Positions 6,670 through 64,000 of a stretch of 64,000 bases of DNA are shown piece after piece. The position numbers were made by a program, and so were the translations under genes. How positions within the stretch are numbered: position 1 is the first letter of the stretch; each line of letters starts with the position of its first letter. This stretch comes from Ostreococcus lucimarinus (lineage: Eukaryota), in NCBI GenBank assembly GCA_000092065.1, contig CP000596.1. One strand, 5' to 3'. The notes under the pieces are model-generated. The model was not told the origin of the DNA, made no database searches, and saw nothing but the letters and a program-made list of their open reading frames with translations.

Positions 6670-6891
6670 CGCGACCGAGTGTGGGGCGGCAACGACCCGA
6701 CGACCGACTCGGCGCGCGGTCGGGCGTTTCGGTCCCGTCACTGCGCGTCGCGCGGACGCGTCGCGCGTCGCGTCGCGTCACCGCCGCGCGAGCGAATCGA
6801 GCGTCGGCGTCGCGGGGCGGGAGACGAAAGTCGCGACGAACGGTGGACCGCGTCCGCGACGGCGCGCGCGCGAACGGCGACGTCGCGCGCG

Positions 6892-38286: not shown

Positions 38287-39624
38287 CTACGCGAGCACCG
38301 CGACGACGGGGGCGGTGGCCGGGGCGGTGGATGGTTTCAGACGCACGACGCGATCGCGAAGGACGCGCGCGCGGACGCCGACGCCGTCGGTGCCCGCGCG
38401 GGCGATTTCGGTTTCGGCGAGGACGCGCAACGCGCGGGTGACGCATCGCGACAGCACGATGGCAACCTCTTTGCCGCCTTCGATGGCGTACTCGCCCTCG
38501 AACTCGACCTCGTTCACGAGGGCTTCGAGCACGCGGTCGTCCCACTCCAATCGCGCGAGCTCGCGGCGCGCTTTTTTCGTCTCACCGCGTCGCTCGAGCT
38601 GCGCGTGCACGATGGCTTTCACCGCCGCGCGATCGAGCGGGACGAAGGGCACGAATATATCGATCGCGCCGACCACCTTGAGCGTGTCCTCGCGATCTTC
38701 GCAACCATCGCTCGTCCACTTTTCGAACAACCCATCCTTCAGCTTGCGCTGCAACGCCGTGAGCTCGTCGCCCGTGGGCGCGCCGCCGCCCGCCGCCGAA
38801 GCGTCGTGCACGTCCATGAATCCCATATTCGCCTCCAACACGAATATCGATCGCCCAAACGTCACGTTTCGATCGAACGGGTTCGCCCCCGTCCCCGCGC
38901 TGCCGTGTTCGAGCATCTGCTTCAACATTCCGCGCGCCGGACACCCTAACTTATCGTACTCCTCGACGACGACGACGGATTCGGGATACTTTTCCAAGTG
39001 TCGCGTCACCGCGTCTCGCAACATCCTCGCCTGCGTCTCGCGTTCGCGCACCACGTAGTCCGTACCGAATATCACCTTATACCCCGGGCATCCCGCCCCC
39101 GGGCACGCCTCGTTTCGTCGTCCTCGTCGTCCCGAGTCGAAATCGCTCTCTCGCGTCGCGTTGTACGCCGCGCGCGCCAATATCCTATGAAACAACGACT
39201 TCCCCACCCCCGGACTCCCGTGCAGCGACATCACCAGCGGTTTCTCTCGATCACGCGACGATTTCTCCGCGTGATCGCACACCGCGTCGACGACGAGCGC
39301 CGCGCCGACGTCTTGCCCCAGCAACTCTCGCGTCGTCAGCGCTCGCGTCCGCGCGCACAGCGCCTCTTCGCAAAACCATCCATCGCGTCCGCACCCCCTC
39401 GCGCGTCGATCGAGCGCGTCCCGCGCGTCGCGCGCGTATCGCACCGCGGCGTCCGCGCCTCGGCGCGCGACGTCGAGCGCGCGTCGCCACGTCTCGACGG
39501 TTTTCTCGCGCTCGCGCGCGAACGCCAACTGAAATCCACAAAGAATCGCCAGCGCGACGCACGCGCGCGCGATGACGCGCCGATCGCGCGCGCCGGTCGC
39601 GCGCGCGCGCTGACCGCGCGCCAT
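38287..39624 (-). CDS. Torsin-family AAA+ ATPase (ER-lumenal type) with signal anchor
   Basis: 445 aa from ATG at 39624. Hydrophobic VIARACVALAILCGFQLAFA. Torsin Walker A EKPLVMSLHGSPGVGKS, against KPLVLSLHGWTGTGKN in Torsins. Confidence 0.7.
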   Translation of the reverse strand: MARGQRARATGARDRRVIARACVALAILCGFQLAFAREREKTVETWRRALDVARRGADAAVRYARDARDALDRRARGCGRDGWFCEEALCARTRALTTRELLGQDVGAALVVDAVCDHAEKSSRDREKPLVMSLHGSPGVGKSLFHRILARAAYNATRESDFDSGRRGRRNEACPGAGCPGYKVIFGTDYVVRERETQARMLRDAVTRHLEKYPESVVVVEEYDKLGCPARGMLKQMLEHGSAGTGANPFDRNVTFGRSIFVLEANMGFMDVHDASAAGGGAPTGDELTALQRKLKDGLFEKWTSDGCEDREDTLKVVGAIDIFVPFVPLDRAAVKAIVHAQLERRGETKKARRELARLEWDDRVLEALVNEVEFEGEYAIEGGKEVAIVLSRCVTRALRVLAETEIARAGTDGVGVRARVLRDRVVRLKPSTAPATAPVVAVLA

Positions 39625-42600
39625 GTCGCGACGCGTCGCGGACGCGCGGCCGGCGCGCGGCGTCGAGCGCGACGAAATGCCGCCGCCGCCATTTCGCGAC
39701 GCATCGTCGACGCGCGCGATGGCGCTCTTCGCGCCGTATCGCGCGCTCGGCCTCGTGAACGCGCAGCGAGGATGCGCGCTCGTCGTCAAGCGGCGCGGGA
39801 CGGAGACGTTCGTCACGGTGAGCGCGGAGGACGCGTTCGCGGTGTACGACGCGCGAAAACTCACATTGGTCTTTCGAAGCGCGCGGTTCGCGACGAGCGA
39901 CGCGCGAGGGATCGGGGCGATGGCGGTGAGGAAGGATTACACGTTTTGCGCGATCGGACGGGAGATAAGGTGCGCGAAACGATTGGCGGAGTGCTGCGAA
40001 GGACTGGGGCGGGACGACGGCTCGGGACACGACGCGCGGGTGACGACGCTGCACGCGTTCGGACGACACTTGGCGAGCGTGGACGAAAATGGGGCGGTGA
40101 AGATGTGGGACATCGATGATGACGCCATGCGGGCGCGCGAGCGGGCGTGGGCGGTGGGACGAGGAGAACCGACGGGGCCGGAGGGCGAGAGCGACTCGGA
40201 GCTCGAGCTCGGCGCGCGAGCGATGGAGATGCCTCGGACGTTCGCGGCGACGACGGTGTGTCATCCCGATGGATACGTGGATAAGTTACTGTTTGGCTCG
40301 AGCGATGGGCGATTGGCGCTGATGAACGTGCGAGCGGGTAAATTGGTGCACGAATTTGCGGGCTGGGGGTCGGCGGTGACGGCGCTGGAGAACTCGCCGG
40401 CGACGGATGTCGTCGCCGTCGGTTTGGCGGATGGGCGCGTGCTTTTGGTGAACGTATTAGAAGATAAAGTTTTGTTTACGCTCACGCCCGAGCGTGGGGT
40501 AAAGGTGACGGCGCTGGCGTTTAGAACGGATGATCAGGACGACGTGCTGTGCGTCGGCGACGAAACGGGACGCGTGACGGTTTGGGATTTGGAAAAGCGC
40601 TCGTTGCGCACGCTCATCGTGCAATGTCACGAAGGTCCGGTGGTTTCGTTGAAATTTCTCGATGGACAACCGGTGATGGTGTCGAGTGGGTTCGATAACA
40701 CGTTGAAGGAGTGGATTTTTGATAGAGAAGACGGCGACGCTCGACTCTTGCGCTTTCGCGCCGGACACTCCAAGCCGCCGACGAGCGTGTCGTTCTACGG
40801 TGAAGGCAAGAAACTTTTAGCGGCTGGGAGCGATCGAACGTTGCGATTTTTTCACGCGTTTCGTGATCAGCAAAACATCGAGTTGAGCCAAAAGAATGTC
40901 AGCAAGCGCGCGAAGAAAATCGGCGTCGCGGAGGAAGAGTTGAAACTTTCTCCGGTTACGAAGATGGCGTGGGGCGAGCTTCGCGAGCGCGATTGGGCAA
41001 ACGTCGTCACCGCGCACGAAGGTTCAAACAAGGCGTACACGTGGCGTATTTCCAAAGGTGCGCTCGGTGAACACATTTTGCAATGTCCGAAGGACGACGG
41101 CAAGTGCGAAGTCAAGTCGGTTGCGATTAGCGCGTGCGGCAACTTTGCCTTTCTCGGTGCCGCAAACGGGGCGATCCATCGATTCAACTTGCAATCGGGC
41201 GCGCATCGTGGCGCGTTCGAGCGCGTCCTCGACGCTGATGAGGTGATGCGCACAAAGAAGAAGAAGAACGGAAACGAAGGGTACAATTTCCCCGGCGGCA
41301 AGCGTTCGTTTTGGGCTCTCGCGAATCAAACCGGTGGAAACGCAGAGGGAAAATTGCGCGTTGCCGCGCACGACGGTGAAGTGACGTGCATACAAGCACA
41401 CTGCGCGAATAGAAGCGTCGTCACCGCGGGTGTCGACGGGATGATTCGCGTGTGGAAATTTAGCGAGTTGAAGATTGACTTGGAAATCGACGTCGGGTGC
41501 GGCGTGCGGTGCGGTCACTTGCACGAGGACTCATTGCTCGTCGTTGGATGCGCTGATAAGCACGTGCGCGTATACGATACCATGACGGGTAAACGTGTTC
41601 GCACGTTCAAGCCACGCGGTCAGGAAAATGAGGCTGGAGATATCACGAGCGTGCAAATCAGTGAAAACGGTAAATGGATCTTCGTCCTCGACACCACCGG
41701 AACGATACGAGTGTACGATATTCCCGCCGCGAGATTGATTCAACACATGATTCTCGGTGCGGATAAAGTCACCGCCATGAGCTTTTCACCGCGAATGGAC
41801 TTTTTAGCCACCGTGCACGAGAACAGGGTCGGGTTGTATTTGTGGGTGAACATGCCGATGTTTGATTACGACACCAAATTGGCGTACGGGCGCAAAGTTT
41901 CCATCGCACTTCCGAGAAAACACGCGGAATCCGACGCAGACGGCGGCGTGCGCGATGCGTCTGAGGAGACGAACAAGGAGTCCAACGATACCGACGTGTA
42001 CATTCACCCGTTCGAAGAAGACGAAGAAGAAGAGCATCGCAATTTGCAAGAGTTGGAAGAATATTTCAAAGAAATGGCCACCGGCCCGAAACAAATAGCC
42101 CCTGGCATGATTACTCTGGCGATGATGCCTCAGACGCAAATCGAAATGCTACTGAATCTGGAGACGGTGCAAGCGAAGAGTAAGGTGAAGACCGATGACA
42201 AAGAACCGGAATTGGCGCCGTTCTTTCTGCCCACAGCCGCCGCGAGCGACGACGTGCGTCGATCTGTCTTCGATCCCGCGCGAGAATCCGAGCTCAACGC
42301 CAAAGACGACACCGGCGATGATGATTCCAAAGCACCGAAGAGTCGAATTTTGCGTCAAGGCGCGGATCTCGCCGGCGCGTCCGCGACGCCGCTCTTGACG
42401 TTGATTCTTCGAGGAGAACGATCGGAGGACTACACCGAAGCGCTCGAATTCTTGAAGAATGCGTCGATACACGTCGTCGACGCCGAGCTGCGATCGCTCG
42501 GACCTTGGGATCACAAGTTCATGTCCGAGGACGACGTGAAAACTTTGCGGAGCGCCATCAAATTTTTCACCGCCGCAATCGCGAGCGGCATGTACTACGA

Positions 42601-42787
42601 GATGGTCAACGCCCAACTCAACGTGTTTCTCAACGTGCACACCACCGCGATCATGCAATCCAGCGCGCTCGTCGACGAGTGTCACGCCCTGCGAGAGGCC
42701 ATGCACAAATCCTACAGCAGGATCGACGATTTGTTCAACGAAATTCGGTGCACGCTCAGTTTCCACATCGGCGACGCCGGCGTCTAG
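39623..42787 (+). CDS. UTP21: UTP21/WDR36 WD-repeat U3 snoRNP (SSU processome) protein
   Basis: 1054 aa. N-terminal ALFAPYRALGLV box typical of WDR36/Utp21. Multiple WD40 repeats. C-terminal Utp21 domain. The ATG at 39623 overlaps the Torsin ATG (CATG); the true start could be Met18 or Met33. Confidence 0.85.
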   Translation: MSRRVADARPARGVERDEMPPPPFRDASSTRAMALFAPYRALGLVNAQRGCALVVKRRGTETFVTVSAEDAFAVYDARKLTLVFRSARFATSDARGIGAMAVRKDYTFCAIGREIRCAKRLAECCEGLGRDDGSGHDARVTTLHAFGRHLASVDENGAVKMWDIDDDAMRARERAWAVGRGEPTGPEGESDSELELGARAMEMPRTFAATTVCHPDGYVDKLLFGSSDGRLALMNVRAGKLVHEFAGWGSAVTALENSPATDVVAVGLADGRVLLVNVLEDKVLFTLTPERGVKVTALAFRTDDQDDVLCVGDETGRVTVWDLEKRSLRTLIVQCHEGPVVSLKFLDGQPVMVSSGFDNTLKEWIFDREDGDARLLRFRAGHSKPPTSVSFYGEGKKLLAAGSDRTLRFFHAFRDQQNIELSQKNVSKRAKKIGVAEEELKLSPVTKMAWGELRERDWANVVTAHEGSNKAYTWRISKGALGEHILQCPKDDGKCEVKSVAISACGNFAFLGAANGAIHRFNLQSGAHRGAFERVLDADEVMRTKKKKNGNEGYNFPGGKRSFWALANQTGGNAEGKLRVAAHDGEVTCIQAHCANRSVVTAGVDGMIRVWKFSELKIDLEIDVGCGVRCGHLHEDSLLVVGCADKHVRVYDTMTGKRVRTFKPRGQENEAGDITSVQISENGKWIFVLDTTGTIRVYDIPAARLIQHMILGADKVTAMSFSPRMDFLATVHENRVGLYLWVNMPMFDYDTKLAYGRKVSIALPRKHAESDADGGVRDASEETNKESNDTDVYIHPFEEDEEEEHRNLQELEEYFKEMATGPKQIAPGMITLAMMPQTQIEMLLNLETVQAKSKVKTDDKEPELAPFFLPTAAASDDVRRSVFDPARESELNAKDDTGDDDSKAPKSRILRQGADLAGASATPLLTLILRGERSEDYTEALEFLKNASIHVVDAELRSLGPWDHKFMSEDDVKTLRSAIKFFTAAIASGMYYEMVNAQLNVFLNVHTTAIMQSSALVDECHALREAMHKSYSRIDDLFNEIRCTLSFHIGDAGV

Positions 42788-42934
42788 TCCCGCGGCGACC
42801 CCACCGGCGCCGATCGCGCCACCGCGAACGTGTAAATCAAAACAAGCGTTTCAACGCCATCTCACGCGCTTCGCGTTCGTCCACCATCCGTCCCGCGTCG
42901 TCGTCTTCGCTCGCCGCACTCCCCGCCGCGTCCC

Positions 42935-43411
42935 ATGTCCGCCTTCGTCCCCGTTCCCGGCTGCGCCACGCGCTTCCGCGTCCTCAACCAGGCGCCGCCG
43001 TCCGCCCCCGTCGTCGAGCGCGGCGACGTCGTCGTCGTCCACGCCAAGGGCGTCGTCAAGGAGACGCAAAAGACGTTCTGGTCCACCAAGGACCCGGGAC
43101 AGAAACCGTTCGAGTACACCGCCGGCGTCGGCGGCGTCATCACCGGTGCGTCGCGCGCGTCGTCGTCGCTCGAGAACCGAGCGCTCGCGCGCCCGCGACG
43201 CGCGACGCCGCGCGACTGACGATGAACGATCGCGAATCGAATCGCCGCAGGCTGGGACCGCGGCTGCCTCGGCGCGCGCGTCGGCGAGACGCGCGAGCTC
43301 GACATTCCCGCGAGCGAGGGCTACGGCGCCGGAGGATTCCCGGCGTGGGGGATCCCGCCGAACGGCGCGCTCGTGTTCGAGATCGAGGTGCTCAGCGTGC
43401 GCGGAAAGTAG
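42935..43411 (+). CDS. FKBP12: FKBP12-type peptidyl-prolyl isomerase; exons 42935..43145 and 43251..43411
   Basis: Exon 1 encodes ...GDVVVVHAKGVVKETQKTFWSTKDPGQKPFEYTAGVGGVITG. Phase-1 GTGCGT donor. Exon 2 encodes WDRGCLGARVGETRELDIPASEGYGAGGFPAWGIPPNGALVFEIEVLSVRGK. The product aligns with the full FKBP12 domain, 123 aa. It is hidden inside the spurious N-terminal extension of the DDX11 track ORF. Confidence 0.8.
43146..43250 (+). other. Intron of the FKBP12 gene (105 nt)
   Basis: Donor GTGCGT. ACTGAC at 43215-43220, about 28 nt before the CAG acceptor at 43248-43250. Confidence 0.8.
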
Positions 43412-43536
43412 AGCGACGAGCGACGAGTAATCCGACGACGCGCCGAATGAATCAAACCGAACGAACGTCACCGCGCGACGCGCGCGATGCGGTGAGGCGC
43501 GGCGCGAGCCCGAACGAACGCGCGCGCACGCCGACG

Positions 43537-46209
43537 ATGCGCCGGGACGCGTTCCCGGCGTTCCCGTACGCGACGGCGTACGGAATACAAAAAGATCTCA
43601 TGCGACACATCTACGACGCGTGCGAGCGACGCGCGACGTTCGGCGCGTTCGAGAGCCCGACGGGCACGGGGAAGACGCTGAGCGTGTTGATCGCGGCGAT
43701 GTCGTGGATCGACGATCGACGACGGGCGCGGCTGGCGGGGACGAAGTTGGACGACGAGGACGACGGGCGGGACGGCGCGGGGGAGACGACGAAGAGCGCG
43801 GAGGACGACGAACCGGATTGGTTGCGAGAGTACGACGCGAAGCGAAGGAAAACAGACGCGGATGAGGTCGAACGAAGACGAGGGGAGATACGGCGGGAGA
43901 TGCGAGCGAGGGCGAAGACGGCGGAGACGCGCGCGCGGTTGCGGCGAGACGCGGAGACGCGGTTGAGAGAAAAGATTCGCGGCGGCGACGCGAGGGACTC
44001 CGCGGTGAAGAACGATGAGATCGATAAGCATACCGCGGAAGAGCGCGAGTTTTTAGCGGATGAGTACGACTCTGGGGCGGAAAATGCGAAGGAGGATTTG
44101 CGAACGTTGCTGCGAGACGGCGACGACGAGAGCGACGACGACGACGCGCACGCGGCGAAGGAGGAAGACGATGCGTTGCGTCCGGCACAGCAGGTAATTT
44201 TGTGCTCGCGGACGCACTCTCAGCTCACACAAGTGATTGGTGAGCTTAAGAGGACGGTATTCGGTGGGAGCGTGGCGAATGCGGAGGAACAAGTCGCCGT
44301 CGCCGCCGTCGCCGGTCGAGCGCAACTGTGCGTCAACCCGGCGGTGAAAAGCTTAGGCTCGGCGGCGCGAATCAACGAGCGTTGCTTGGACATGAGCAAA
44401 GGCAAGGCGAAGCCAGGGGAGAAGACGAAAATCAAGGCGTGTCCGTACTTGTCTAAGCGTCGAAAGGCGATGCTCGAGCTTAAAGAAGCGGCGTTGGCCA
44501 AGCCGATGGACATTGAAGATTTAGCCAAGCTCGGCGAGTCGAGTCGGGCGTGTCCGTATTACGCCGCTCGCTCGGCGTTACCGGAAGCGGACTTGGTGTT
44601 GATGCCCTACGCATCTTTGTTGCACGCGGACACGCGCGAGATTTTAGGCGTCAAGTTGGAGAATGCGGTGGTGGTTTTCGACGAGGCGCACAACTTGGTG
44701 GACGCCGTGCACAATTCATACGGCGCCGCGGTGACGCTCAACCAATTAAGCGACGTTAACGACATGCTCACCGAGTACGTCGAGCGATTCAAGACTCGTT
44801 TGAGCGCGAATAACTTGCGTTATCTGCGTACGTTGACCAACATAACGCGCGCGTTCGTGAAAGTCCTCGCGAAAGAGACGGAAGACGAGAGCAAACCTCA
44901 AAAACGATTGACGACGTTGAATGATTTCTTGTTTGAGTGCGGACAAGACACTGTGAATATGTTTAGCTTGCGAAGATACTTGAAGGAGAGTAAGGTAGCG
45001 CATAAGATCGCGTCGTATGGCGAGCGTGTGCGCTCGGGGGAGAACATGAGCGTCGACGGCGTCAAGATGGAAACCATCGGACGTACGAAAGTCGCCGTCG
45101 CGCCGGATCCAAATGCTGCCCCGCGCGTGGGCGCGGTGCACGCGTTGACGTCACTCATCGATGCGTTAGCGAGCGCGGATAGTGATGGTCGAATGATTTA
45201 CGAACGCGCCACGCCTGAAGGTGATCCCGCAACGCTTCGTTTTGTCCTGCTTGACGCCGCCAGCCGGTTCAAGCGCGTCGTCGAACAAGCGCGTTCGGTG
45301 ATTCTCGTCGGCGGAACGCTCGCGCCGATTCCCGAGCTCGTCGCCCAGCTCTTCCCAGATTTACAGTCGCAAACGGCTCCAGCACCGGGTGCTCGACAGC
45401 TCAAGACGTTCACGTGTGGGCACATCATACCCCGCGACAACTTGTTACCCATCGCCCTCTCCGCGGGTCCCACTGGCGTGGCGTTGGATTTCACGCACGG
45501 CGCTCGCGCTGACGTTTCCGTTATTGATGAACTCGGGAGAATCCTTCTCAACGCGTGCAGAGTCTCTCCTGGCGGAGCGTGTGTCTTCTTTCCGTCGTTC
45601 AAATACGCCGACGAAGTGTACGCGAGATGGGAGTCCACGGGCGCCATGGCGTCCATTCGCGGCGTCAAGGACGTGTATCGCGAACCGCGCGACGCGAGCA
45701 CTCTGGAGCAATGCTTGAGAGATTACGCGGCGTCAGTGAGCCGAGGCGCGAGTACGCGAAACGGCGGCGCGGTGTTGTTATGCGTCGTCGGAGGTAAGTT
45801 GAGCGAAGGCATCAACTTCAAGGATGAACTCGGTCGACTCGTCGTCATGGTCGGCTTGCCCTACGCCAACGTCGCCGACGCCGAGCTCAAGGCGCGCATG
45901 GACCATCTCGATACCGGTCCTGGGAACCAAGGACGCGGTCGCGCGTATTACGAAGCGTTGTGCATGCGAGGCGTCAATCAAAGCATCGGGCGCGCGATTC
46001 GTCACGTCGGCGATTACGCGTGCATTTTGCTCTGCGACAAGCGATGGGGCGCGTTTGGGAGCGCGACGAACGGCTCGCGCACCAAGGCGGCCAAAGCACT
46101 TCCAGAATGGATAGAACAACGACTTGTGGTGCCGCAGCGTAATTACGGTGAAGCGCACGGTCGCGTGGCACAATTCTTTCGCGCGCGCGAGGCGAAACAA
46201 GGACACTAG
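43537..46209 (+). CDS. DDX11: DDX11/ChlR1 (Chl1) Fe-S DNA helicase of the XPD/Rad3 superfamily
   Basis: 890 aa from ATG at 43537. N-terminal FPAFPYATAYGIQKDLM...ESPTGTGKTLS. DEAH box VVFDEAHNLVDAV. C-terminal helicase motifs LLCVVGGKLSEGINF and YYEALCMRGVNQSIGRAIRH. Confidence 0.85.
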   Translation: MRRDAFPAFPYATAYGIQKDLMRHIYDACERRATFGAFESPTGTGKTLSVLIAAMSWIDDRRRARLAGTKLDDEDDGRDGAGETTKSAEDDEPDWLREYDAKRRKTDADEVERRRGEIRREMRARAKTAETRARLRRDAETRLREKIRGGDARDSAVKNDEIDKHTAEEREFLADEYDSGAENAKEDLRTLLRDGDDESDDDDAHAAKEEDDALRPAQQVILCSRTHSQLTQVIGELKRTVFGGSVANAEEQVAVAAVAGRAQLCVNPAVKSLGSAARINERCLDMSKGKAKPGEKTKIKACPYLSKRRKAMLELKEAALAKPMDIEDLAKLGESSRACPYYAARSALPEADLVLMPYASLLHADTREILGVKLENAVVVFDEAHNLVDAVHNSYGAAVTLNQLSDVNDMLTEYVERFKTRLSANNLRYLRTLTNITRAFVKVLAKETEDESKPQKRLTTLNDFLFECGQDTVNMFSLRRYLKESKVAHKIASYGERVRSGENMSVDGVKMETIGRTKVAVAPDPNAAPRVGAVHALTSLIDALASADSDGRMIYERATPEGDPATLRFVLLDAASRFKRVVEQARSVILVGGTLAPIPELVAQLFPDLQSQTAPAPGARQLKTFTCGHIIPRDNLLPIALSAGPTGVALDFTHGARADVSVIDELGRILLNACRVSPGGACVFFPSFKYADEVYARWESTGAMASIRGVKDVYREPRDASTLEQCLRDYAASVSRGASTRNGGAVLLCVVGGKLSEGINFKDELGRLVVMVGLPYANVADAELKARMDHLDTGPGNQGRGRAYYEALCMRGVNQSIGRAIRHVGDYACILLCDKRWGAFGSATNGSRTKAAKALPEWIEQRLVVPQRNYGEAHGRVAQFFRAREAKQGH

Positions 46210-46282: not shown

Positions 46283-47266
46283 TTATTCGTCGCTGTCGTC
46301 GTCGTCGTCGTTCGCGTCGCTCGTCCACAGCGTGAGATTGTCGCGCAAAAGCTGCATGATCAAGGTGGAATCCTTGTAAGATTCGTCCGTCAGCGTGTCC
46401 AAATCGGCGATGGCTTCCTCGAACGCCGTCTTGGCGAGTTCGCACGCCTTGGTCGAATCGTTGCCGATTTCGTAATGGAACACCGAGTGGTTGAGCGCCA
46501 AACCGAGTCGCACGGGGTGCGTCGGCGGTAATCCATCGGTCGAACCCTTCCCGTTCGCCATCGTCGTCGCCTCCGCGTACGCCTCGTCCGCGTTTTTACT
46601 CGCCTCTTCGCGTTCATCACCGCTCGAAACCTCGGCGAGGTAGCGATAGTAATCCGCCTTCATCTTCAGGTAAAACACCACGCTCTCCCCATCCCCCGAC
46701 GCCTTGCTCAACAATCGCCCGTCGAGCACCTCCAACACGTCGGCGCAAATATCCTTCAACTCCTTCTCCACGCGCGTTCGATACCCCCTCACCTTTTCCG
46801 CCTGCGCCTCGTGTCCCTTCCCTCGCTCCTTCTCCTCGATCGAGTTCAAGATTCTCCACGACCCGCGTCGCGCGCCGATCACGTTCTTGTACCCCACGCT
46901 CAGCATGTTTCGCTCATCCGTCGTGAGCGCGTCGACGCCCTCGAGCGCGCACAGCGCCCGCATCGCCTTCACTTGTTCTGCGTCCGCGTCGCGCGCCGCG
47001 TCGCGTCGATCCGTCAGTCGCCTCGTCCCGACGCGTCATCGCGCCCGCGCCGTTCGCACGCGTCGATCGCGTCGCGCGCGCGACGCGTCGATCCGCGACG
47101 CGCCGCGCGCGCCCGCGCGCGCCTCGACGCGATCGATCCTTCGTTCGTCCGTCGCGCCGTCGATCGCGCCGTCGATCGCGTCGGACGTCGACGCACCGTC
47201 GTGTCGCTCCGCCTGCTCGGCGAGTTTCGCCTCGAACACGCATCGCTGGCGCGCGTCGAGCGACAT
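46283..47266 (-). CDS. 14-3-3 protein; exons 47197..47266 and 46283..46977
   Basis: Exon 1 encodes [23 protein letters not shown], ending at a phase-1 GTGCGT donor. Exon 2 encodes (E)[13 protein letters not shown]...[23 protein letters not shown]...[19 protein letters not shown]. 254 aa with an acidic C-terminus. Confidence 0.9.
46978..47196 (-). other. Intron of the 14-3-3 gene (219 nt)
   Basis: Donor GTGCGT. gACTGAC about 35 nt upstream of the CAG acceptor. Confidence 0.85.
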
Positions 47267-47399: not shown

Positions 47400-50111
47400 A
47401 TGGTGGAAAAGGCGGGCGCGCGAAACGGCGTCCGCGTCAGCGCCGATGATCGAATGATGCGTCGCGACGCGACGACGCGACGCGGCGACTCGGCGCGCGC
47501 GATGGCGACGGACGCGCGCGCGAGGGCGACGCGCGCGGTGTATCTGCGCGAAACGGTGATCTCGAAGCTGCGATTGGCGCGGACGCTGAGCGATACCGCG
47601 GTGTATAAATCGTACGCGCGGCGGTCGGCATTGGCGATGAAGTACACGCTGACGATTTATGAGCAGCGGAAGATGCTGTTCTTGGCGGTGGCGCACGCGA
47701 TGGCGACGATGGTGGTGTGGTCGCACTTTTTCTTGGTCAAGTATCGCGCGACGGCGAAGGTGCCGCGCGGGGCGAATTTGTATTGGTGGAAGCGACTGAC
47801 GCCGCCGTTTGAGTTCGGGGCGATGCACGCGATTTTGTTTCAGATGGCGCTGCTGCCGCTGACGATGGCGCGACAGAGCGTGGCGGCGCTGTCGACGACG
47901 TCTTTCGGAAGGAAGTTTGTCCCGCTGCACAAAGTCGTGGCGATGCACATTCACCTCGGGTACGTCATGGTTTCTTTCGTGTTCGCGTCGACTATTTTGT
48001 TCTTCGTGTTCTTCGGACAAGGTTGCGCGCAGCAAAAGTCGGGTAAAGAGCCGACGCCGGGCGGGCAGCACACGTTTTGTCACAAGATGACGAGCGAAAT
48101 CATGGCCACCGGGTTGGCGATTATGGGATGCTTGCTGCTCGTCGCGGTGACGTCGTACGCGAGAAATCGAATCAAGTACGAGATCTTTTACTACGTTCAC
48201 CACTTCGTATTCATCATGTTTGCGCTCGCAATCGCGCACACGCTGGATGATAAGGCCCGACGCGGACAGGTGCGCTCGCAAAACTTTAAGTGGTTCTCCG
48301 CATCGCTCGTATGGTACTTGACGGACCGATTGCAAGCGTCGTTCAACATACGAGATTGTGACGTCGTGGAGTGCGTCGCGCTCGGTGACGACGAGCCGGA
48401 GTCACGTAAAGTGGTGCACTTGCGCATTGTGCGCCCGGAGACGTTCATTTTTCGTCCAGGTCAATATGTCTTTATCAACGATCGCAACATCGATTACACG
48501 TGGCATCCGTACTCGATTGCGTCGTCACCGCACGAGGATACGATTGACTTTTACATCGAAGTCATGTCGACGAGCAGAGTCGATGGCGCAAATAGCTGGA
48601 CGAATAAGCTCTGGCGCGACGCCCGGGATGGGTTTGTATCCAAAATGCGCATTAATGGACCGTATGGCACCGGATTTAACGACATCGACGACAAGACGGA
48701 AATCGTGGCCATCGGCGCCGGGACGGGCATCGTTCCGATGCTTTCCTTGGCGAAAGCCAAGGTGAACGAGTTCGTACGAATGAATGCTCAAGCGCGGTTG
48801 TCTGACTTGGCCGCCAGAGACGCCAAAAATCGCAAGTTCGCGGACAATTATTTCAAAGAGTCTTACACGCTGAAGGACTTCGTCTATAAACAGCTCGGCC
48901 TCGCGAAGAAGGAATCGAAGGCCAGCGAAATGTGGGCGAGTCGAAGCGTTCAAGACATATTTTTGCATAAGCAGTGCGCTTGGCGCGAAGCGAAGTTGCG
49001 AGAAGAAGGTGATAACGCCACGAAACGTCATTACGAGAGACTTCTCACGAAGAATGTCTTGCACGAAGTCGTGGACCTCACGCAAATCGGGTTCCCGCTG
49101 CTCGACTTAACCTCCATCGCGTTACTCCTTTCTTTCTCGAAAAACTTTGCAATCGCCACGCAAGCCATGCGAGAAGTCCCACTGTGGGCTTTCTTCGTAT
49201 GCCACTGCTATTTCTTCGTTCACTGGGTGTTCACCAGAATGAACGCCCCTATTTGGTGGATAGATCTCATCTTCAACGCCACGTCAACCGTGGCGTTCAC
49301 CGCCTGGTACAACTTGATTCGTGAAGATCGTAAGGAATGGAATGTCTACATGATTTGGGCGTTCGCCGCACTCTCGGTGTACCGAATCGCTCGAATCTCC
49401 AGTGACGTTCTCTTAACAGGCACTCCTGGCTCGCGCGCCGTCAACGCGTATCTCGAAAAAACGGGCGACGCGACGAGCGTGACTGAAAAGTTCACGCTCA
49501 TCTTCATGACGCCGCAGGTTGACTTCTGCCAAATCCTCTGGCGTGACTTGGACTCTCTTCATCAATCGATTACAAAGAATTATGGCGAGCAAGCTTCGCG
49601 TGTTTTCGACATTCAAGTCTATTGCACGTCGAGAGACTCGGCGGAAAACGAAGAATTGAAGAAGCGCGTCAAGGGCACTTCGCTCGGCGCCGCCGGCGCG
49701 CTTCATATGGAGCGCCCTGACTTGGACGAGATCACGTCTCGCCCCGTTCTTCAACAAGTGCTAAAGGATCAATTTACCGGAGAGGACAGACCATCGTTCA
49801 CGGCCAGCCTCGTCGCCTTTTGCGGCAGCACGCAGCTCGGTTCAAAAATTGCGCTCGCCGTCGTTCGCTCGAGAGCTCGCGTGAAAGCCTTCACCGAAAA
49901 TCACTCCATCGAGTTTCTTCAAGAAAACTACGGCCAAGCGACGCCCGCGAAAGATCGCGGTCGCGCCTCTTTCAAACAGGTCAGAGTCGAGCCTGCACCA
50001 ACTGTATCCGGCGTCGTCGGCAACATCGTAAACGTCGGCCGCGCCGCGGCCAACGTCGCCGCCGTCGCGCTCAAGACCGTCGGACCGAAGACGACGAAAA
50101 CGTCCAATTGA
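47400..50111 (+). CDS. NADPH oxidase / ferric-reductase (NOX/FRE) family flavocytochrome with an extra 4-TM insert inside the NADPH-binding domain
   Basis: 903 aa. Ferric-reductase TM domain with paired His (HKVVAMHIHLGY, YYVHHFVFIMFALAIAH). FAD motif HPYSIASSP. NADPH P-loop AIGAGTGIVPM. Then about 250 aa with four hydrophobic helices, before the C-terminal LVAFCGSTQLG (CGP-like) motif. Confidence 0.8.
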   Translation: MVEKAGARNGVRVSADDRMMRRDATTRRGDSARAMATDARARATRAVYLRETVISKLRLARTLSDTAVYKSYARRSALAMKYTLTIYEQRKMLFLAVAHAMATMVVWSHFFLVKYRATAKVPRGANLYWWKRLTPPFEFGAMHAILFQMALLPLTMARQSVAALSTTSFGRKFVPLHKVVAMHIHLGYVMVSFVFASTILFFVFFGQGCAQQKSGKEPTPGGQHTFCHKMTSEIMATGLAIMGCLLLVAVTSYARNRIKYEIFYYVHHFVFIMFALAIAHTLDDKARRGQVRSQNFKWFSASLVWYLTDRLQASFNIRDCDVVECVALGDDEPESRKVVHLRIVRPETFIFRPGQYVFINDRNIDYTWHPYSIASSPHEDTIDFYIEVMSTSRVDGANSWTNKLWRDARDGFVSKMRINGPYGTGFNDIDDKTEIVAIGAGTGIVPMLSLAKAKVNEFVRMNAQARLSDLAARDAKNRKFADNYFKESYTLKDFVYKQLGLAKKESKASEMWASRSVQDIFLHKQCAWREAKLREEGDNATKRHYERLLTKNVLHEVVDLTQIGFPLLDLTSIALLLSFSKNFAIATQAMREVPLWAFFVCHCYFFVHWVFTRMNAPIWWIDLIFNATSTVAFTAWYNLIREDRKEWNVYMIWAFAALSVYRIARISSDVLLTGTPGSRAVNAYLEKTGDATSVTEKFTLIFMTPQVDFCQILWRDLDSLHQSITKNYGEQASRVFDIQVYCTSRDSAENEELKKRVKGTSLGAAGALHMERPDLDEITSRPVLQQVLKDQFTGEDRPSFTASLVAFCGSTQLGSKIALAVVRSRARVKAFTENHSIEFLQENYGQATPAKDRGRASFKQVRVEPAPTVSGVVGNIVNVGRAAANVAAVALKTVGPKTTKTSN

Positions 50112-60708: not shown

Positions 60709-63700
60709 CTAGATTCCGATCCGATCGACGACGGCGCGGGAATCGAAGAATGATGCCAAGGCGGTGGAGAGCGGTGCGCGGTGCGCGCTTCGGATGGCGT
60801 CGATGGCGTGGGGGGCGATTTGGGCGACGACGTCGGCGTCGGCGAAATCGACGAGGGACGCCAACGCGCGCGCGGCGAGACGCTCTCGCGTCGGCGTGAG
60901 GGCGTTGGAGCGTAAACACGCATCACCGTCGCGCGTGTTTTCTTTGTCGCTCTCGCGCGCTTCTCGGTGGATGACTAAGCATCGCGACGCGTGTTCCACG
61001 AGGCGCTCTCTCGCGTCGACGTCGCCTCGCAACGCTCGTAAAAGCGCGTCGCCGGCGGCAAACTCGAGACGAGACAACGTCCCGAGAGATCCTTCGGCGT
61101 CGTTTTCTTCTCTCGCGAACGCGTAGGCGTCGGTGATGATGTCCACGAGTTCCGAGCGCGCGCTCTCCGGAACGCCGACGACGCCTCGCAAATCGGCGCA
61201 CGCAGCGACGCACGCGAGCGAGCGACTCACGACATCGCTCGCGTTCGGTAAGTCGAGCATGACGACGTCTACGACGACGCCGTACCGCAGAACTTTGCAA
61301 ATCGCACGCCAAGTGTCCACAGAAGAGTCACCGCGAGCTATGACGACGTCCATCGCCGAGCGCGTCGCCGCGAGCGCGTCGGGAATCGCTCGAGGCGCGG
61401 CGGCGCGCAAGACGTTCGTCACGAAGGACCAAATCGCCGGTAGCAACGCGTCGTAGGCTGATTTTTTGTCGCGCACGAGCGCGATCAGGCGTGGAAGAAT
61501 GAGATCCAACGCCCGCGTGGCGTCGAGCTTGGTCTCCAATAAGCCCTCGACCGCTCCAGCGCGCGCCACCCCCCACGCCTCGGCGCTCAGTCGCTCGACG
61601 TCGTCGTCTTCGAGAACGCGGAACAACGCGTCGAGAGCGCGATCGTCTTCGCGCGCGAGCGCGCCGATAGTTTCGCACGTTGCCGCCCAAGTCGTCTTCA
61701 ACCACGCGTTCGCGTCCTCGTCGCCCATGGCGAGTCCTCGGCGGCACGCCGCGGCGATCGTCGCAACGGCGCGTCGCGGCGGCGAATCCTCGTCGTCCGA
61801 GCCAGCGCTCGCGCGTCGTCGGCGTCGCGCGAACGTCCCGAGCAAGCACATCGCTCGTGGGACGCACGCAAGCGGTAGGCCGAGGTAGTCGTCGTCGTCC
61901 TCCGTCGCCACCTTCGACGCGCTGTCGCCATTTTTTTCCAACGCCGCGGCCAGCGCCTTCTCCAACGCCTCGCACGCCGCGGCTTCCGCATCTCCCAAAG
62001 CGACATCGCTCGACGAACCGTCACCGTACACGTGTTCGAGCACTTCTAACGCTGGATCCCAACCCAAATCCAGCGAGTCCCCGAATCGCTGGAGCGCTTG
62101 AGCGACGCACGACGAAATCAAATCTCTCGCGTGCGCGTTTGGGGCGTTTTCGATCGCCGCGACGAATGGCTTCATCGCGTCCACCTGCGTGGCCGAACGC
62201 GTCGCGCGCGCGCGTAAAAGCAACCTATTCGCCACTTGTCGTAGCGAATCTGTGGCGTGTAACACGACTTTATCGTCGGGGTGCTTCACGCTCTCCACCA
62301 GGTGTTCGGCGACGACGTTCCAAAGCTTGGACCACACCAGGCGCACGCGCGTCATATTCGTCGCCGCGACTTCGGTGAGACGTAGTAACGCCGACACGTT
62401 ACCGCCCGCACCGTCCCAGAGTTCATGACGAGATACTGTGGCGATGGCGGAGGCGTAGGCGATGATCTCATCGGAATCGAATCGAGTGCTCAACGCGAAT
62501 ACGCGCTCGATGGCTTCGCCGCCCGCGGTGGACAACCACTGCGTCACCGAAAGCTCCGCCGGGGTGAGCGCGTCGGGGCTAACATCGCCGCCCGATTGCG
62601 TCGCCGATTTCGATGACGCCACTAGTTCTTGCATGCGAAGCGGTGCACAAAAAATATCTTTCGCGCGCGCGGTATCGAAGGATACGCCGGCGCCGACGAC
62701 GGCGCGCAAGTTTTCCAACCGCGTCACCATTTCCAACACGCTCGCCCACGCCTGGACGCCGCCTAGATTGGATTCGCTCGCCGCGAGCTCGAGGAGCGTG
62801 CTCAAAGCTTCTTTACTCTGAGTTGCGATGCCTTCGCGGCGTCCAAACCCAGGAGCAGAGACTAAGAAGGTGCAGATATCGTCGCGCAACATCGGGAGTT
62901 GCAGTCGCGCCGCGAGCGACAGCATCGCTCTCGCGCCTTCGAGCGGCATCGCTGCGTGCGCTTCATCCGGGGCGGAGTCAAACGCGCTGGATAACGCGAT
63001 TAACATGCATTTCCCCGCCGCCTCGAGCATCGGTCGCGCCAAGCCTGGTTCGGAGGCTCGGACGAAGAGCGCGCTCGCGGCTTCGTCGCTCTCCTCGGCG
63101 TGCTTGAACATCGCCTTCGTGGACTTGAGTAACTCTACCGTTTCGTCGCTCGCCTCTTTGAGCGTAGATCGGTTCTTCCAGGGAGCTGCAAAGTTTAGTA
63201 CTTGCGCCATCGTCTTCTTCGCCCGCGCGTTATCGCCACCGTTCGCTTTGGTCGCCGTCGATGGCTCCGCGGCGTGCATTTTGATTTCCTCGGCAGTGAC
63301 GCGCGCGTAAATCGCGGCGACGGCTTCCACATCCAAATCTTTTGTCGCCTCGGCTGCGGTGGCCATGAGCACGAAATCACCTTCGCTCATCTTCATCGCG
63401 GCGTCTGTGAGGGGGTTGTGCGCATCCGTGTTCAACATGACGATCGCGAAGGCTAAGATGTACGCGGCGTCCGCGGACGGGTACGCCCCCGGATTGCACG
63501 CGCAAAACCTCGCCGCGAACGCCTCGACCAATCGATCAATCTTTTGTGCCTCCCCTGGGAGCTTGAACCCACCCAAAAACAAGCGCATGGCATCATCGAT
63601 GCTCATCGACGCAAAGTCGAATCTGTGGACGTACGCGCGCATGACGACGAGCGCGTCGGCGTCGGGCGAGCCGAGTAACTCGCCGATGGCGGCGGGCGCG

Positions 63701-64000
63701 ACGCGCGCGCTCGTCTTGCGCAAAAACTCCGCACACACATTTGGATCCTCCGAGCGCGCCGCGACTCTGAGCGTCTGCGTCGAAGGATCGACGTTGAAGG
63801 CTTCGACAGCCTTTTCCATGGAGGCCTTCGTCTTTTTCGCCTTTTGAAATCGTTCGGCTTCGGATTCCACCGCGGCGGACGGGGAATTTACACACGACGG
63901 CGACGACGGGGAGTCTGACGGCGACGTCGGAGCTGTCGCGATTTTTTCTTCGCGATGCGTCGGCGACGTGGGCGTGGAAGGTCCATCATCGCCGGCGACG
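60709..64000 (-). CDS. Sec7-domain ARF guanine-nucleotide exchange factor (BIG/GBF class), 5'-partial: continues beyond the window end
   Basis: Sec7 catalytic region KLPGEAQKIDRLVEAFAARFCACNPGAYPSADAAYILAFAIVMLNTDAHNP with the glutamate finger. About 950 aa of downstream HDS-like helical repeats. The frame stays open, with no in-frame ATG, from 63870 to base 64000. Confidence 0.8.
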   Translation of the reverse strand, partial: VAGDDGPSTPTSPTHREEKIATAPTSPSDSPSSPSCVNSPSAAVESEAERFQKAKKTKASMEKAVEAFNVDPSTQTLRVAARSEDPNVCAEFLRKTSARVAPAAIGELLGSPDADALVVMRAYVHRFDFASMSIDDAMRLFLGGFKLPGEAQKIDRLVEAFAARFCACNPGAYPSADAAYILAFAIVMLNTDAHNPLTDAAMKMSEGDFVLMATAAEATKDLDVEAVAAIYARVTAEEIKMHAAEPSTATKANGGDNARAKKTMAQVLNFAAPWKNRSTLKEASDETVELLKSTKAMFKHAEESDEAASALFVRASEPGLARPMLEAAGKCMLIALSSAFDSAPDEAHAAMPLEGARAMLSLAARLQLPMLRDDICTFLVSAPGFGRREGIATQSKEALSTLLELAASESNLGGVQAWASVLEMVTRLENLRAVVGAGVSFDTARAKDIFCAPLRMQELVASSKSATQSGGDVSPDALTPAELSVTQWLSTAGGEAIERVFALSTRFDSDEIIAYASAIATVSRHELWDGAGGNVSALLRLTEVAATNMTRVRLVWSKLWNVVAEHLVESVKHPDDKVVLHATDSLRQVANRLLLRARATRSATQVDAMKPFVAAIENAPNAHARDLISSCVAQALQRFGDSLDLGWDPALEVLEHVYGDGSSSDVALGDAEAAACEALEKALAAALEKNGDSASKVATEDDDDYLGLPLACVPRAMCLLGTFARRRRRASAGSDDEDSPPRRAVATIAAACRRGLAMGDEDANAWLKTTWAATCETIGALAREDDRALDALFRVLEDDDVERLSAEAWGVARAGAVEGLLETKLDATRALDLILPRLIALVRDKKSAYDALLPAIWSFVTNVLRAAAPRAIPDALAATRSAMDVVIARGDSSVDTWRAICKVLRYGVVVDVVMLDLPNASDVVSRSLACVAACADLRGVVGVPESARSELVDIITDAYAFAREENDAEGSLGTLSRLEFAAGDALLRALRGDVDARERLVEHASRCLVIHREARESDKENTRDGDACLRSNALTPTRERLAARALASLVDFADADVVAQIAPHAIDAIRSAHRAPLSTALASFFDSRAVVDRIGI

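What the first reader, a model, noticed from the sequence alone, without database searches (positions are those of the whole stretch)
47400..50111. NOX/ferric-reductase with four transmembrane helices inserted into the NADPH-binding domain
After the NADPH P-loop (GAGTGIVPM) there are about 250 residues containing four strongly hydrophobic helices (LLDLTSIALLLSF, LWAFFVCHCYFFVHWVF, WWIDLIFNATSTVAFTAWY, VYMIWAFAALSVYRIA) before the C-terminal CGP-like motif (LVAFCGSTQLG). A comparable intradomain 4-TM insertion has been described in red-algal and diatom NOX homologues, and was not expected in a green alga. It lies in the same window as a NOS, so enzymes producing NO and superoxide are encoded 40 kb apart.
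Basis: partly seen in the sequence, partly recalled or inferred. Interest (0 to 1): 0.5.

Follow-up and report, generated by a model that had tools for sequence, protein, structure and literature searches.

The report
Algal NoxD-type oxidase, four extra helices
This Ostreococcus gene encodes a NADPH-oxidase-like membrane enzyme whose NADPH-binding domain really is interrupted by four extra membrane helices, but this layout is the already described algal "NoxD/preNOX" type and has been reported for green algae.

Summary
ORF 47400-50111 (+) encodes a 903-aa NOX/ferric-reductase flavocytochrome. About 240 residues (456-694) are inserted between the GxGxGxxP helix unit and the second strand of the NADPH-binding fold. 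Residues 556-672 of the insert form four hydrophobic helices.

The insert is translated. It has no stop codons and 0-2 gap codons against three other Ostreococcus species, with dN/dS of 0.17-0.33. An O. mediterraneus UniRef protein is collinear through it. AlphaFold2 models it confidently as an antiparallel four-helix bundle.

The architecture is the known algal NoxD/preNOX type. Zhang 2013 reported it for Viridiplantae, and a 2020 survey listed an O. tauri NoxD-like gene. Homologues with an alignable insert occur in Bathycoccus, Cymbomonas, diatoms, Emiliania and Chromera. A rough core-domain tree places this clade sister to red-algal NoxD with 98% bootstrap. The insert sequences themselves show no detectable similarity to the red-algal ones.

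Superoxide production is not established. All 61 aligned members lack the distal TM3 haem histidine and the canonical O2-pocket residues. The NOS gene is present about 40 kb away, but I found no evidence of functional linkage.

Novelty is low. The role of the four helices remains unknown.

The parts
47400..50111 (+). Complete coding sequence (903 codons plus stop) of the NoxD-type NOX-like flavocytochrome. Database relatives start at M19 or M35, so the true start codon is uncertain.
47484..47663 (+). N-terminal cytosolic helices (residues 29-88) before TM1. No EF-hand.
   Evidence: AlphaFold2 secondary structure; Pfam finds no EF-hand
47667..48344 (+). Ferric-reductase (haem-binding) domain with six TM helices (residues 90-315). 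Haem ligands conserved: H183 (47946-47948), H267 (48198-48200), H280 (48237-48239). The expected distal TM3 histidine is S197 (47988-47990). Extra conserved histidines: H99 (47694-47696), H109 (47724-47726), H143 (47826-47828).
48345..48695 (+). FAD-binding beta-barrel (residues 316-432) with the HPYSIAS motif at 48504-48524.
48696..48764 (+). First strand, glycine-rich loop and helix of the NADPH-binding fold (residues 433-455; GAGTGIVPM at 48714-48740).
48765..49064 (+). Insert, first part (residues 456-555): soluble helical stalk. This is the least conserved part of the insert (69-73% identity among Ostreococcus species, dN/dS about 0.3).
49065..49415 (+). Insert, four-helix membrane bundle (residues 556-672): i1 49074-49142, i2 49161-49232, i3 49248-49325, i4 49344-49415. 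Family-conserved residues: S578 (49131-49133), D622 (49263-49265), Y661 (49380-49382), R665 (49392-49394).
49416..49481 (+). Insert, return linker (residues 673-694) leading back to strand beta-2.
49482..49934 (+). Remainder of the NADPH-binding fold (residues 695-845), with FCGS (49818-49829) and the terminal ENYG aromatic motif (49923-49934).
49935..50108 (+). C-terminal tail (residues 846-903). Low confidence (pLDDT below 50 from residue 855) and weakly constrained (dN/dS 0.6-1.1). Much shorter or unalignable in more distant homologues.

Best explanation
The gene encodes an EF-hand-less NOX-like flavocytochrome b of the algal NoxD/preNOX type.

Shown:
- It has an intact ferric-reductase six-helix domain, an FAD barrel and a NADPH-binding fold.
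- The NADPH-binding fold is split after its first strand-loop-helix unit by about 240 translated residues.
- The insert leaves the cytosolic domain through a helical stalk, forms an antiparallel bundle of four hydrophobic helices, and returns.
- The whole arrangement is conserved under purifying selection in prasinophytes, diatoms, a haptophyte and a chromerid.
- Its catalytic core is sister to red-algal NoxD in a rough tree.

Inferred:
- Electrons pass from NADPH to FAD, then to the inner haem (H183/H267), then to the outer haem (H280 plus an unidentified partner), then to an acceptor on the far side of the membrane.
- The four-helix bundle, which enters and leaves on the cytosolic side, most likely acts as a built-in membrane anchor or accessory module. 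It would hold the NADPH lobe docked against the membrane domain. In other NOX enzymes this job is done by separate subunits or EF-hand domains.
- O2 (giving superoxide) is my working guess for the acceptor. It is a weak guess, because the canonical O2 pocket is not conserved.
For: Family and fold:
- Pfam and PDB sequence matches to NOX2, NOX5 and DUOX1.
- Foldseek top hits are NOX5, DUOX1 and NOX2, E 1e-15 to 1e-12.
- All cofactor motifs are conserved: HPxSxxS, GxGxGxxP, FCG, ENYG.

Insert position: profile alignment to NOX2 (422->426) and NOX5 (558->580) against profile positions 422->653.

Insert is coding:
- 239 codons with 0-2 gap codons and no stops in four Ostreococcus species.
- dN/dS is 0.17-0.33 for the four-helix part.
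- An O. mediterraneus UniRef protein is gap-free over 855 residues including the insert.
- MMETSP transcript-derived diatom homologues contain it.

Helices:
- Wimley-White scan.
- AlphaFold2 block-averaged pLDDT about 84-97 in the full-length model and 89.5 mean for the insert alone.
- Lys+Arg count is 8 on the predicted cytosolic side against 2 on the outer loops.

Relation to NoxD:
- Same insertion point and helix number as Chondrus and Porphyra NoxD (PMC1940245 and its supplement).
- NJ tree of 472 core columns: family plus red-algal NoxD 98% bootstrap; with fungal NoxC 100%.

Prior description in the green lineage: PMC3591440 and PMC7730656.
Against: - The insert has no detectable sequence similarity to the red-algal NoxD insert (BLASTP; hhalign probability 0.1-0.2%).
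- The family profile scores Chondrus NoxD (121.7 bits) no better than human NOX5 (118.7 bits).
- The tree is a quick neighbour-joining tree built partly from OCR-derived sequences. Long-branch attraction is possible.
- All 61 aligned members lack the distal TM3 haem histidine (S/A at position 197). Alignment to NOX2 and human NOX5 places F139 and F201 at the positions of the O2-pocket residues (CsNOX5 R256 and H317) (PMC8129163). Zhang 2013 concluded that the chlorophyte preNOX genes they analysed are unlikely to generate ROS.
- The anchoring/docking role of the bundle is inference only.
Confidence: 0.75

Rival explanations
1. The 'insert' is an unrecognised intron or assembly/annotation artefact. 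On this view the mature protein is an ordinary six-helix NOX.
For: The insert is absent from canonical NOX enzymes. Pfam's NAD_binding_6 model is broken by it.
Against: - The reading frame is open.
- There are 0-2 gap codons and no stops over 239 codons in four Ostreococcus species, with dN/dS of 0.17-0.33.
- An O. mediterraneus UniRef protein and MMETSP transcript-derived homologues retain it.
- The insert aligns, with invariant S578 and near-invariant D622, Y661 and R665, across green algae, diatoms, Emiliania and Chromera.
- AlphaFold2 folds it confidently.
Confidence: 0.02
2. The protein is a metalloreductase (ferric or cupric chelate reductase, or a reductase for another extracellular or lumenal acceptor) rather than a superoxide-generating oxidase.
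For: - The canonical O2-pocket residues and the distal TM3 histidine are replaced in all 61 aligned members (PMC8129163).
- Zhang 2013 (PMC3591440) judged the chlorophyte preNOX genes they analysed unlikely to generate ROS.
- The outer-face loops are strongly conserved: invariant C209 and C227, and T281, D283, R287, R292, S293, Q294. This could indicate a specific substrate site.
- JGI annotates relatives as 'predicted ferric reductase'.
Against: [quoted passage not shown] - The core is closest to NOX structures, and the rough tree places it with NoxD and NoxC. No ferric-reductase (FRE/FRO) sequence was included for comparison.
- The NOX-type T237-G238 dipeptide is invariant (PMC3591440).
Confidence: 0.3
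3. The four-helix insertion arose independently in this clade and in red-algal NoxD, at a site in the NADPH-binding fold that tolerates insertions. On this view the window protein is not a true NoxD member.
For: - No sequence similarity between the two inserts.
- Insert lengths differ: about 240 residues here against 305-416 trimmed in Chondrus and Porphyra (PMC1940245).
- Red-algal NoxD keeps the canonical TM3 histidine pair while this family does not.
- The same site carries a hydrophilic insertion of about 20 residues in NOX5. Fungal NoxC also has a long insertion between its NADPH-binding subregions (PMC1940245; sequence).
Against: - The insertion point and the helix number are the same in both.
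- The core-domain tree unites the two groups at 98% bootstrap.
- Membrane helices and linkers commonly diverge beyond detection over such distances.
Confidence: 0.2

Closest known systems
Red-algal NoxD (Chondrus crispus Ccrboh AAZ73480; Porphyra yezoensis ABA18724; Herve et al. 2006; Kawahara et al. 2007)
   Same: - NOX catalytic core without EF-hands.
- Four additional predicted TM helices (TM7-TM10) inserted at the same point, between the NADPH-binding subregions.
- C-terminal ...ENF/YG motif.
- Sister group in a rough core-domain tree (98% bootstrap).
   Different: - No detectable similarity between the insert sequences.
- The insert is shorter here (about 240 residues against about 305-416).
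- Chondrus and Porphyra keep the canonical TM3 His...His+14 pair. This protein and all 60 aligned relatives have Ser/Ala at the distal position and carry extra conserved histidines in TM1 and TM2.
- This protein has a 58-residue disordered tail after ENYG.
'preNOX' group of Zhang et al. 2013 (PMC3591440) and the NoxD-like genes of O. tauri and other algae in PMC7730656
   Same: - Described as NOX-group homologues of Rhodophyta, stramenopiles and Viridiplantae with four additional predicted TM helices.
- Green-algal members are noted to lack the second haem histidine of TM3 while keeping the Thr-Gly dipeptide. That is what is seen here (S197; T237-G238).
   Different: - Those papers name species only in figures, so I could not confirm that their green-algal sequences are orthologues of this gene.
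- Here the missing distal histidine also applies to the diatom, haptophyte and chromerid members of the family. Zhang et al. attribute it to green algae only.
Human NOX2-p22phox, NOX5 and DUOX1-DUOXA1 (solved structures 8gz3, 8u85, 7d3e)
   Same: - Same six-helix haem domain, FAD barrel and NADPH fold (Foldseek E 1e-15 to 1e-12; TM-score normalised to NOX2 of 0.64-0.67).
- Inner-haem ligands and the TM5 outer-haem ligand are conserved.
   Different: - No partner subunit or EF-hand domain is encoded in the protein. Instead four extra helices lie in cis.
- The O2-pocket residues (CsNOX5 R256, H313, H317) are F, S and F here.
Plant/protist ferric-chelate reductases (FRO/ppFRE)
   Same: Zhang et al. 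[quoted passage not shown] An interrupted NADPH domain is therefore not unique to NoxD.
   Different: - Not compared by sequence here, because no FRO sequence was available to the tools.
- The named relatives in the homologue list carry NOX- or RBOH-derived names.
- O. tauri shows almost no inducible ferrireductase activity (PMC4855317).

Membership tests
NOX/FRE flavocytochrome b superfamily (ferric-reductase domain + FAD + NAD(P)H) | Ferric_reduct transmembrane domain with haem-ligand histidines in TM3 and TM5 | tested here: met
   Pfam PF01794, E 6e-10. H183 (TM3), H267 and H280 (TM5, 13 apart) are invariant or nearly so. However, only three of the four canonical ligands are present.
NOX/FRE flavocytochrome b superfamily (ferric-reductase domain + FAD + NAD(P)H) | FAD-binding barrel (HPFT/S motif) and NADPH-binding fold (GxGxGxxP ... 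CGP/S ... C-terminal aromatic) | tested here: met
   PF08022, E 2e-12. HPYSIAS, GAGTGIVPM, FCGS and ENYG are all conserved. Both halves of the NADPH fold align to NOX2 and NOX5.
NoxD (algal NOX with TM7-TM10; Herve 2006, Kawahara 2007) | Four additional predicted TM helices inserted between the NADPH-binding subregions | tested here: met
   Insert at residues 456-694, at the same point as in Chondrus NoxD (after GGIGSTPF...; before VDFVWT). Four hydrophobic helices.
NoxD (algal NOX with TM7-TM10; Herve 2006, Kawahara 2007) | No N-terminal EF-hand domain | tested here: met
   No EF-hand Pfam hit. The N-terminus has about 60 residues of helix before TM1.
NoxD (algal NOX with TM7-TM10; Herve 2006, Kawahara 2007) | Groups phylogenetically with red-algal NoxD (and fungal/amoebal NoxC) | tested here: met
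   NJ tree, 472 core columns, 200 bootstraps: family plus Chondrus and Porphyra NoxD 98%; plus Fusarium NoxC 100%. This is a rough method with small sampling and OCR-derived reference sequences.
NoxD (algal NOX with TM7-TM10; Herve 2006, Kawahara 2007) | Insert homologous in sequence to the red-algal TM7-TM10 insert | tested here: not met
   BLASTP finds no alignment in the insert. hhalign of the 26-sequence insert profile gives probability 0.2% against Chondrus and 0.1% against a Chondrus+Porphyra alignment. Divergence beyond detection is not excluded.
NoxD (algal NOX with TM7-TM10; Herve 2006, Kawahara 2007) | All four haem-ligand histidines conserved (reported for Chondrus NoxD) | tested here: not met
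   The distal TM3 position is S197, and A or S in 61 of 61 family members. Chondrus and Porphyra have His there.
ROS-generating NADPH oxidase (functional class) | Canonical O2-reduction pocket at the outer haem (CsNOX5 Arg256, His313, His317; NOX2 R54, H115, H119) | tested here: not met
   The aligned positions are F139, S197 and F201. The pocket is as defined in PMC8129163.
ROS-generating NADPH oxidase (functional class) | NADPH-dependent superoxide or H2O2 production | not testable with these tools
   Requires biochemistry or genetics. No published assay for the Ostreococcus protein was found.
Reductive iron-uptake ferric reductase (FRE/FRO functional class) | Induced by iron deficiency and responsible for cell-surface ferrireductase activity | not testable with these tools
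   Literature only. [quoted passage not shown] Orthology to the window gene is inferred, not shown.

The most novel reading that the evidence does not exclude
The prasinophyte/diatom/haptophyte/chromerid clade may be a distinct NoxD-like subfamily with rebuilt outer-face redox chemistry.
- The distal TM3 haem ligand and both other O2-pocket residues are gone in every aligned member.
- New near-invariant histidines appear in TM1 (H99, H109) and TM2 (H143, one turn below the NOX2 R54 position).
- The outer haem would then be ligated through TM2 or be five-coordinate. That would change the acceptor or the mechanism, for example to inner-sphere O2 or NO chemistry, or to a metal substrate.
- The four-helix bundle, with its invariant Ser and near-invariant Asp/Tyr/Arg, would serve as an in-cis accessory module. 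It could be a p22phox-like scaffold or a charge-compensating path.
Probability: 0.2. Interest if true: 0.6.

Novelty: already known. Interest (0 to 1): 0.25.

Why it matters
The finding adds little as stated. NOX-like proteins with four extra helices in the NADPH-binding domain have been known since 2006 and were reported for the green lineage in 2013 and 2020.

What remains open is the function of this architecture. Kawahara 2007 stated that it was unknown, and I found no later study that resolves it.
- The family is small: 199 cluster representatives among 1.84 billion proteins match the insert.
- It occurs in ecologically dominant marine phytoplankton: Ostreococcus, Bathycoccus, diatoms and Emiliania.
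- The presumed O. tauri orthologue is reported as strongly expressed.
- Extracellular superoxide production by phytoplankton is a recognised but mechanistically unresolved flux.
- Whether this protein contributes depends on whether it reduces O2 at all. Its remodelled outer-haem site puts that in doubt.

Ostreococcus is genetically tractable, so a knockout would address this directly.

Tried and rejected
- **Intron or artefact hypothesis.** Rejected by codon-level comparison with three Ostreococcus orthologues and by collinearity with an O. mediterraneus UniRef protein.
- **Sequence homology between this insert and the red-algal NoxD insert.** BLASTP and hhalign found nothing. By eye there is an Asp at the start of helix 3 and an RxxR at the end of helix 4 in both. 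I do not count this as evidence.
- **Search for stand-alone relatives of the bundle**, as a possible donor of the insertion. There were 199 hits. Most of the ten short hits I inspected carry NOX flanking sequence; two end shortly after helix i4 and are uninformative. No stand-alone relative was found.
- **Haem geometry** (does H143 or H109 reach the outer haem?). Not testable, because structure prediction returns no coordinates. The afdb50 fold library was unavailable.
- **Conserved NOS-NOX linkage.** Only 10-kb flanks of the orthologues could be fetched. The immediate neighbours differ in all three, but the 40-kb distance itself could not be examined.
- **Species identification.** The exact protein occurs only in unnamed Logan assemblies. 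The nearest named relative is O. mediterraneus, at 84-85% identity.
- **Herve et al. 2006** is not held in the library.
Full report
**What is in the sequence**

The window holds an uninterrupted ORF at 47400-50111 on the + strand (903 codons).

Pfam finds the ferric-reductase transmembrane domain (residues 147-277) and the FAD-binding domain (337-424). It finds only the C-terminal half of the NAD-binding domain (728-817), below the curated threshold.

Matches to solved structures of NOX2, NOX5 and DUOX1 cover the haem domain, the FAD barrel and the GxGxGxxP loop, then stop near residue 455. A profile of 61 homologues aligns to NOX2 and NOX5 on both sides of a gap. Profile positions 422->653 correspond to NOX2 422->426 and NOX5 558->580. 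The protein therefore carries about 240 extra residues (456-694). They lie between the first strand-loop-helix unit and the second strand of the NADPH-binding fold.

**Are the four helices membrane helices?**

- A Wimley-White octanol scan with a 19-residue window gives positive segments at the six canonical TM helices (2.8-13.0 kcal/mol) and the four insert helices (5.5, 15.7, 7.6 and 5.5 kcal/mol). One marginal segment lies in the Rossmann core.
- On Kyte-Doolittle only two of the four exceed 1.4. The helices are rich in aromatic residues rather than strongly aliphatic.
- AlphaFold2 on the 61-sequence alignment gives mean pLDDT 85 and pTM 0.83. Helices 540-581, 588-611, 617-642 and 649-672 have block-averaged pLDDT of about 84-97.
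- The insert modelled alone (pLDDT 89.5) is an up-down-up-down four-helix bundle.
- Lys+Arg count is 8 on the segments predicted to be cytosolic and 2 on the two short outer loops. This fits an insert that enters and leaves on the cytosolic side.
- No dedicated topology predictor was available, and model coordinates are not returned. Co-planarity with the haem domain and the docking surface were therefore not examined.

**Is the insert translated?**

I fetched the orthologous genes of three other Ostreococcus species from metagenome contigs and made codon alignments.

| Region | Codons | Gap codons | Stops | dN/dS |
|---|---|---|---|---|
| Whole insert | 239 | 0-2 | 0 | not computed as one region |
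| Four-helix part | 117 | 0 | 0 | 0.17-0.33 |
| Soluble stalk | 100 | 0-2 | 0 | about 0.3 |
| Catalytic domains (for comparison) | – | 0-1 | 0 | 0.08-0.52 |

An O. mediterraneus UniRef protein is collinear with the window protein over 855 residues without a single gap. To my knowledge its accession series derives from MMETSP transcriptomes. MMETSP-labelled homologues also contain the insert. The intron/artefact reading is rejected.

**What family is it?**

The database search returned 100 homologues, the display limit.

- Full-length relatives that include the insert come from Ostreococcus species (78-99% identity), a cluster containing Bathycoccus prasinos, and Cymbomonas.
- Others come from diatoms (Seminavis, Cylindrotheca, Epithemia), Chromera velia and Emiliania huxleyi.
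- The insert aligns across all of them. S578 is invariant, and D622, Y661 and R665 are near-invariant.
- A profile of the insert alone finds only 199 cluster representatives among 1.84 billion proteins.
- Most of the ten short hits I inspected carry NOX flanking sequence; two simply end after helix i4. I found no evidence of a stand-alone relative of the bundle.

**Comparison with the literature**

- Kawahara et al. 2007 (PMC1940245) named the red-algal enzymes NoxD. They noted four additional predicted TM regions in an insertion between the NADPH-binding subregions and stated that its function is unknown.
- Anderson et al. 2015 (PMC5016757) drew the same architecture for Chondrus, Cyanidioschyzon, Porphyra and Phaeodactylum. 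They noted its absence from the Chlamydomonas RBOs.
- Zhang et al. [quoted passage not shown] They also state that green-algal members lack the second haem histidine of TM3.
- A 2020 survey (PMC7730656) explicitly lists a NoxD-like gene in O. tauri.
- Lelandais et al. 2016 (PMC4855317) discuss the single O. tauri ferrireductase homologue, ostta09g01890. It is strongly expressed and slightly repressed by iron deprivation, in cells with very low, non-inducible ferrireductase activity.

The statement that the insertion 'was not expected in a green alga' is therefore not supported. One plant-centred survey did miss the Ostreococcus gene (PMC4824067). I suspect this is because the split NAD-binding domain falls below HMM thresholds.

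**Direct test against red-algal NoxD**

I recovered the Chondrus crispus and Porphyra yezoensis NoxD sequences from the supplement of PMC1940245.

- The insertion point is the same: after GGIGSTPF plus a helix, and before VDFVWT.
- The inserts show no detectable similarity (BLASTP; hhalign probability 0.1-0.2%).
- The family profile scores Chondrus NoxD at 121.7 bits, no better than human NOX5 at 118.7 bits.
- A neighbour-joining tree of 472 core columns with the insert trimmed out gave these bootstrap values from 200 replicates:

| Grouping | Bootstrap |
|---|---|
| This family | 100% |
| The two red-algal NoxD | 100% |
| Family plus red-algal NoxD | 98% |
| Plus fungal NoxC | 100% |

This matches Kawahara's NoxC/NoxD subgroup. 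The method is rough: NJ, 18 sequences, and OCR-derived references. With that caveat, a single origin of the four-helix insertion followed by divergence beyond recognition is the most parsimonious reading. Convergent insertion at a permissive site remains a live alternative. The same site carries a hydrophilic insertion in NOX5, and fungal NoxC also has a long insertion between its NADPH-binding subregions.

**A feature that bears on function**

Two independent alignments agree on the correspondences below: the HMMER profile against human NOX5 and MAFFT with human NOX2. The CsNOX5 equivalents follow from published NOX2/CsNOX5 correspondences and my own mapping.

| Window residue | NOX2 | CsNOX5 | Role in canonical NOX | Family conservation |
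|---|---|---|---|---|
| H183 | H101 | H299 | inner-haem ligand | 60 of 61 |
| S197 (H183+14) | H115 | H313 | distal haem ligand | Ser/Ala in 61 of 61 |
| F201 (H183+18) | H119 | H317 | O2 pocket | at least 90% |
| F139 | R54 | R256 | O2 pocket | Phe in 55 of 61 |

Conservation counts are unless noted. The three residues S197, F201 and F139 replace the ones that form the proposed O2-binding pocket at the outer haem (PMC8129163).

In their place the family has near-invariant histidines in TM1 (H99, H109) and TM2 (H143, one helical turn below the R54 position). It also has very strongly conserved outer loops: invariant C209 and C227, and T281, D283, R287, R292, S293, Q294. Chondrus and Porphyra NoxD keep the canonical TM3 pair.

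Whether H143 or H109 supplies the missing ligand could not be tested without coordinates. The consequence is that superoxide production by this protein is an assumption, not a finding. Zhang et al. reached the same doubt for the chlorophyte genes they analysed.

**Most likely mechanism**

Shown: all cofactor motifs for FAD and NAD(P)H and three of the four haem ligands are conserved. The fold is that of NOX (Foldseek E 1e-15 to 1e-12 against NOX5, DUOX1 and NOX2).

Inferred:
- Electrons flow from NADPH to FAD to the inner haem to the outer haem to an acceptor across the membrane.
- The insert is connected to the Rossmann fold through helical stalks. It most likely anchors the NADPH lobe to the membrane as a built-in accessory module. 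It would substitute for the separate subunits or EF-hand domains that dock the dehydrogenase domain in other NOX enzymes.
- O2 is my working guess for the acceptor. A metal or other acceptor is a serious rival, at about 0.3.

**NOS linkage**

A complete NOS is encoded at 3274-6741 on the - strand, with oxygenase, flavodoxin, FAD and NAD domains. The co-occurrence is real. However, the two genes are about 40 kb apart in a window densely packed with long ORFs. The immediate neighbours of the NOX-like gene differ in all three other Ostreococcus species examined. The upstream neighbour here is a divergently transcribed 14-3-3 gene. Nothing supports functional coupling.

**Verdict**

- The architecture is already known, including in the green lineage.
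- Interest is low to moderate. It rests on two unresolved points: the role of the four helices and the remodelled outer-haem site. Both would need structure coordinates, biochemistry or an Ostreococcus knockout to resolve.

Noticed in passing
window 47694-48002 (codons H99, H109, F139, H143, H183, S197, F201): The distal TM3 haem histidine and both other residues of the canonical NOX O2 pocket are replaced (S197, F201, F139) in all or nearly all of the 61 aligned family members. The diatom, haptophyte and chromerid members are included. Near-invariant histidines appear in TM1 and TM2 instead. Red-algal NoxD keeps the canonical pair.
   Followed up: partly
window 48015-48290 (outer loops: G206, C209, C227; T281-W298): The two extracytoplasmic loops of the haem domain are among the most conserved parts of the protein. 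Two cysteines are invariant, suggesting a likely disulfide. The motif HTxDxxxR...RSQxFKW is also invariant. This hints at a specific outer-face site.
   Followed up: no
window 3274-6741 (-): Full-length nitric oxide synthase: oxygenase domain (E 1e-125) plus flavodoxin, FAD and NAD domains.
   Followed up: partly
window 46283-46972 (-): A 14-3-3 protein gene lies immediately upstream of the NOX-like gene and is divergently oriented, with about 430 bp between the two ORFs. This neighbour is not seen next to the orthologue in the two other Ostreococcus contigs with upstream sequence (L002, L003).
   Followed up: partly
L001, L002, L003 (orthologue contigs): Gene order around the NOX-like gene differs in each of three other Ostreococcus species. 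Neighbours include thioredoxin-like and PCNA-like genes, a GTP_EFTU-domain GTPase and a CCCH zinc-finger gene, and a SET-domain and a Rieske gene. Local synteny is therefore not conserved.
   Followed up: partly
database clusters of P0007, P0010, P0014: In the cluster containing Bathycoccus and in two other homologue clusters, many database entries are split into two ORFs: about 160-290 aa plus about 540-680 aa. The sizes suggest a break in the N-terminal third, possibly an intron there, and not in the insert.
   Followed up: no
window 49935-50108: A 58-residue tail follows the normally C-terminal ENYG aromatic motif. It is predicted disordered (pLDDT below 50 from residue 855) and evolves almost neutrally among Ostreococcus species (dN/dS 0.6-1.1).
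   Followed up: partly
window 39623-42787 (+), 42505-46209 (+), 60709-63870 (-): Other large ORFs in the window. One is a Utp21/WDR36 beta-propeller protein and one is a Sec7-domain protein (both by Pfam). A long ORF has a C-terminal part containing a DEAH-type helicase motif (VVFDEAHNL), judged by eye only.
   Followed up: no
window 49182-49232 (helix i2, LWAFFVCHCYFFVHWVF): The CHC motif and a second histidine (H608) in insert helix 2 look like possible metal or haem ligands. They are not conserved outside the closest relatives (C601 7/61, H602 14/61, C603 9/61, H608 11/61). They are unlikely to be a family-wide cofactor site.
   Followed up: yes
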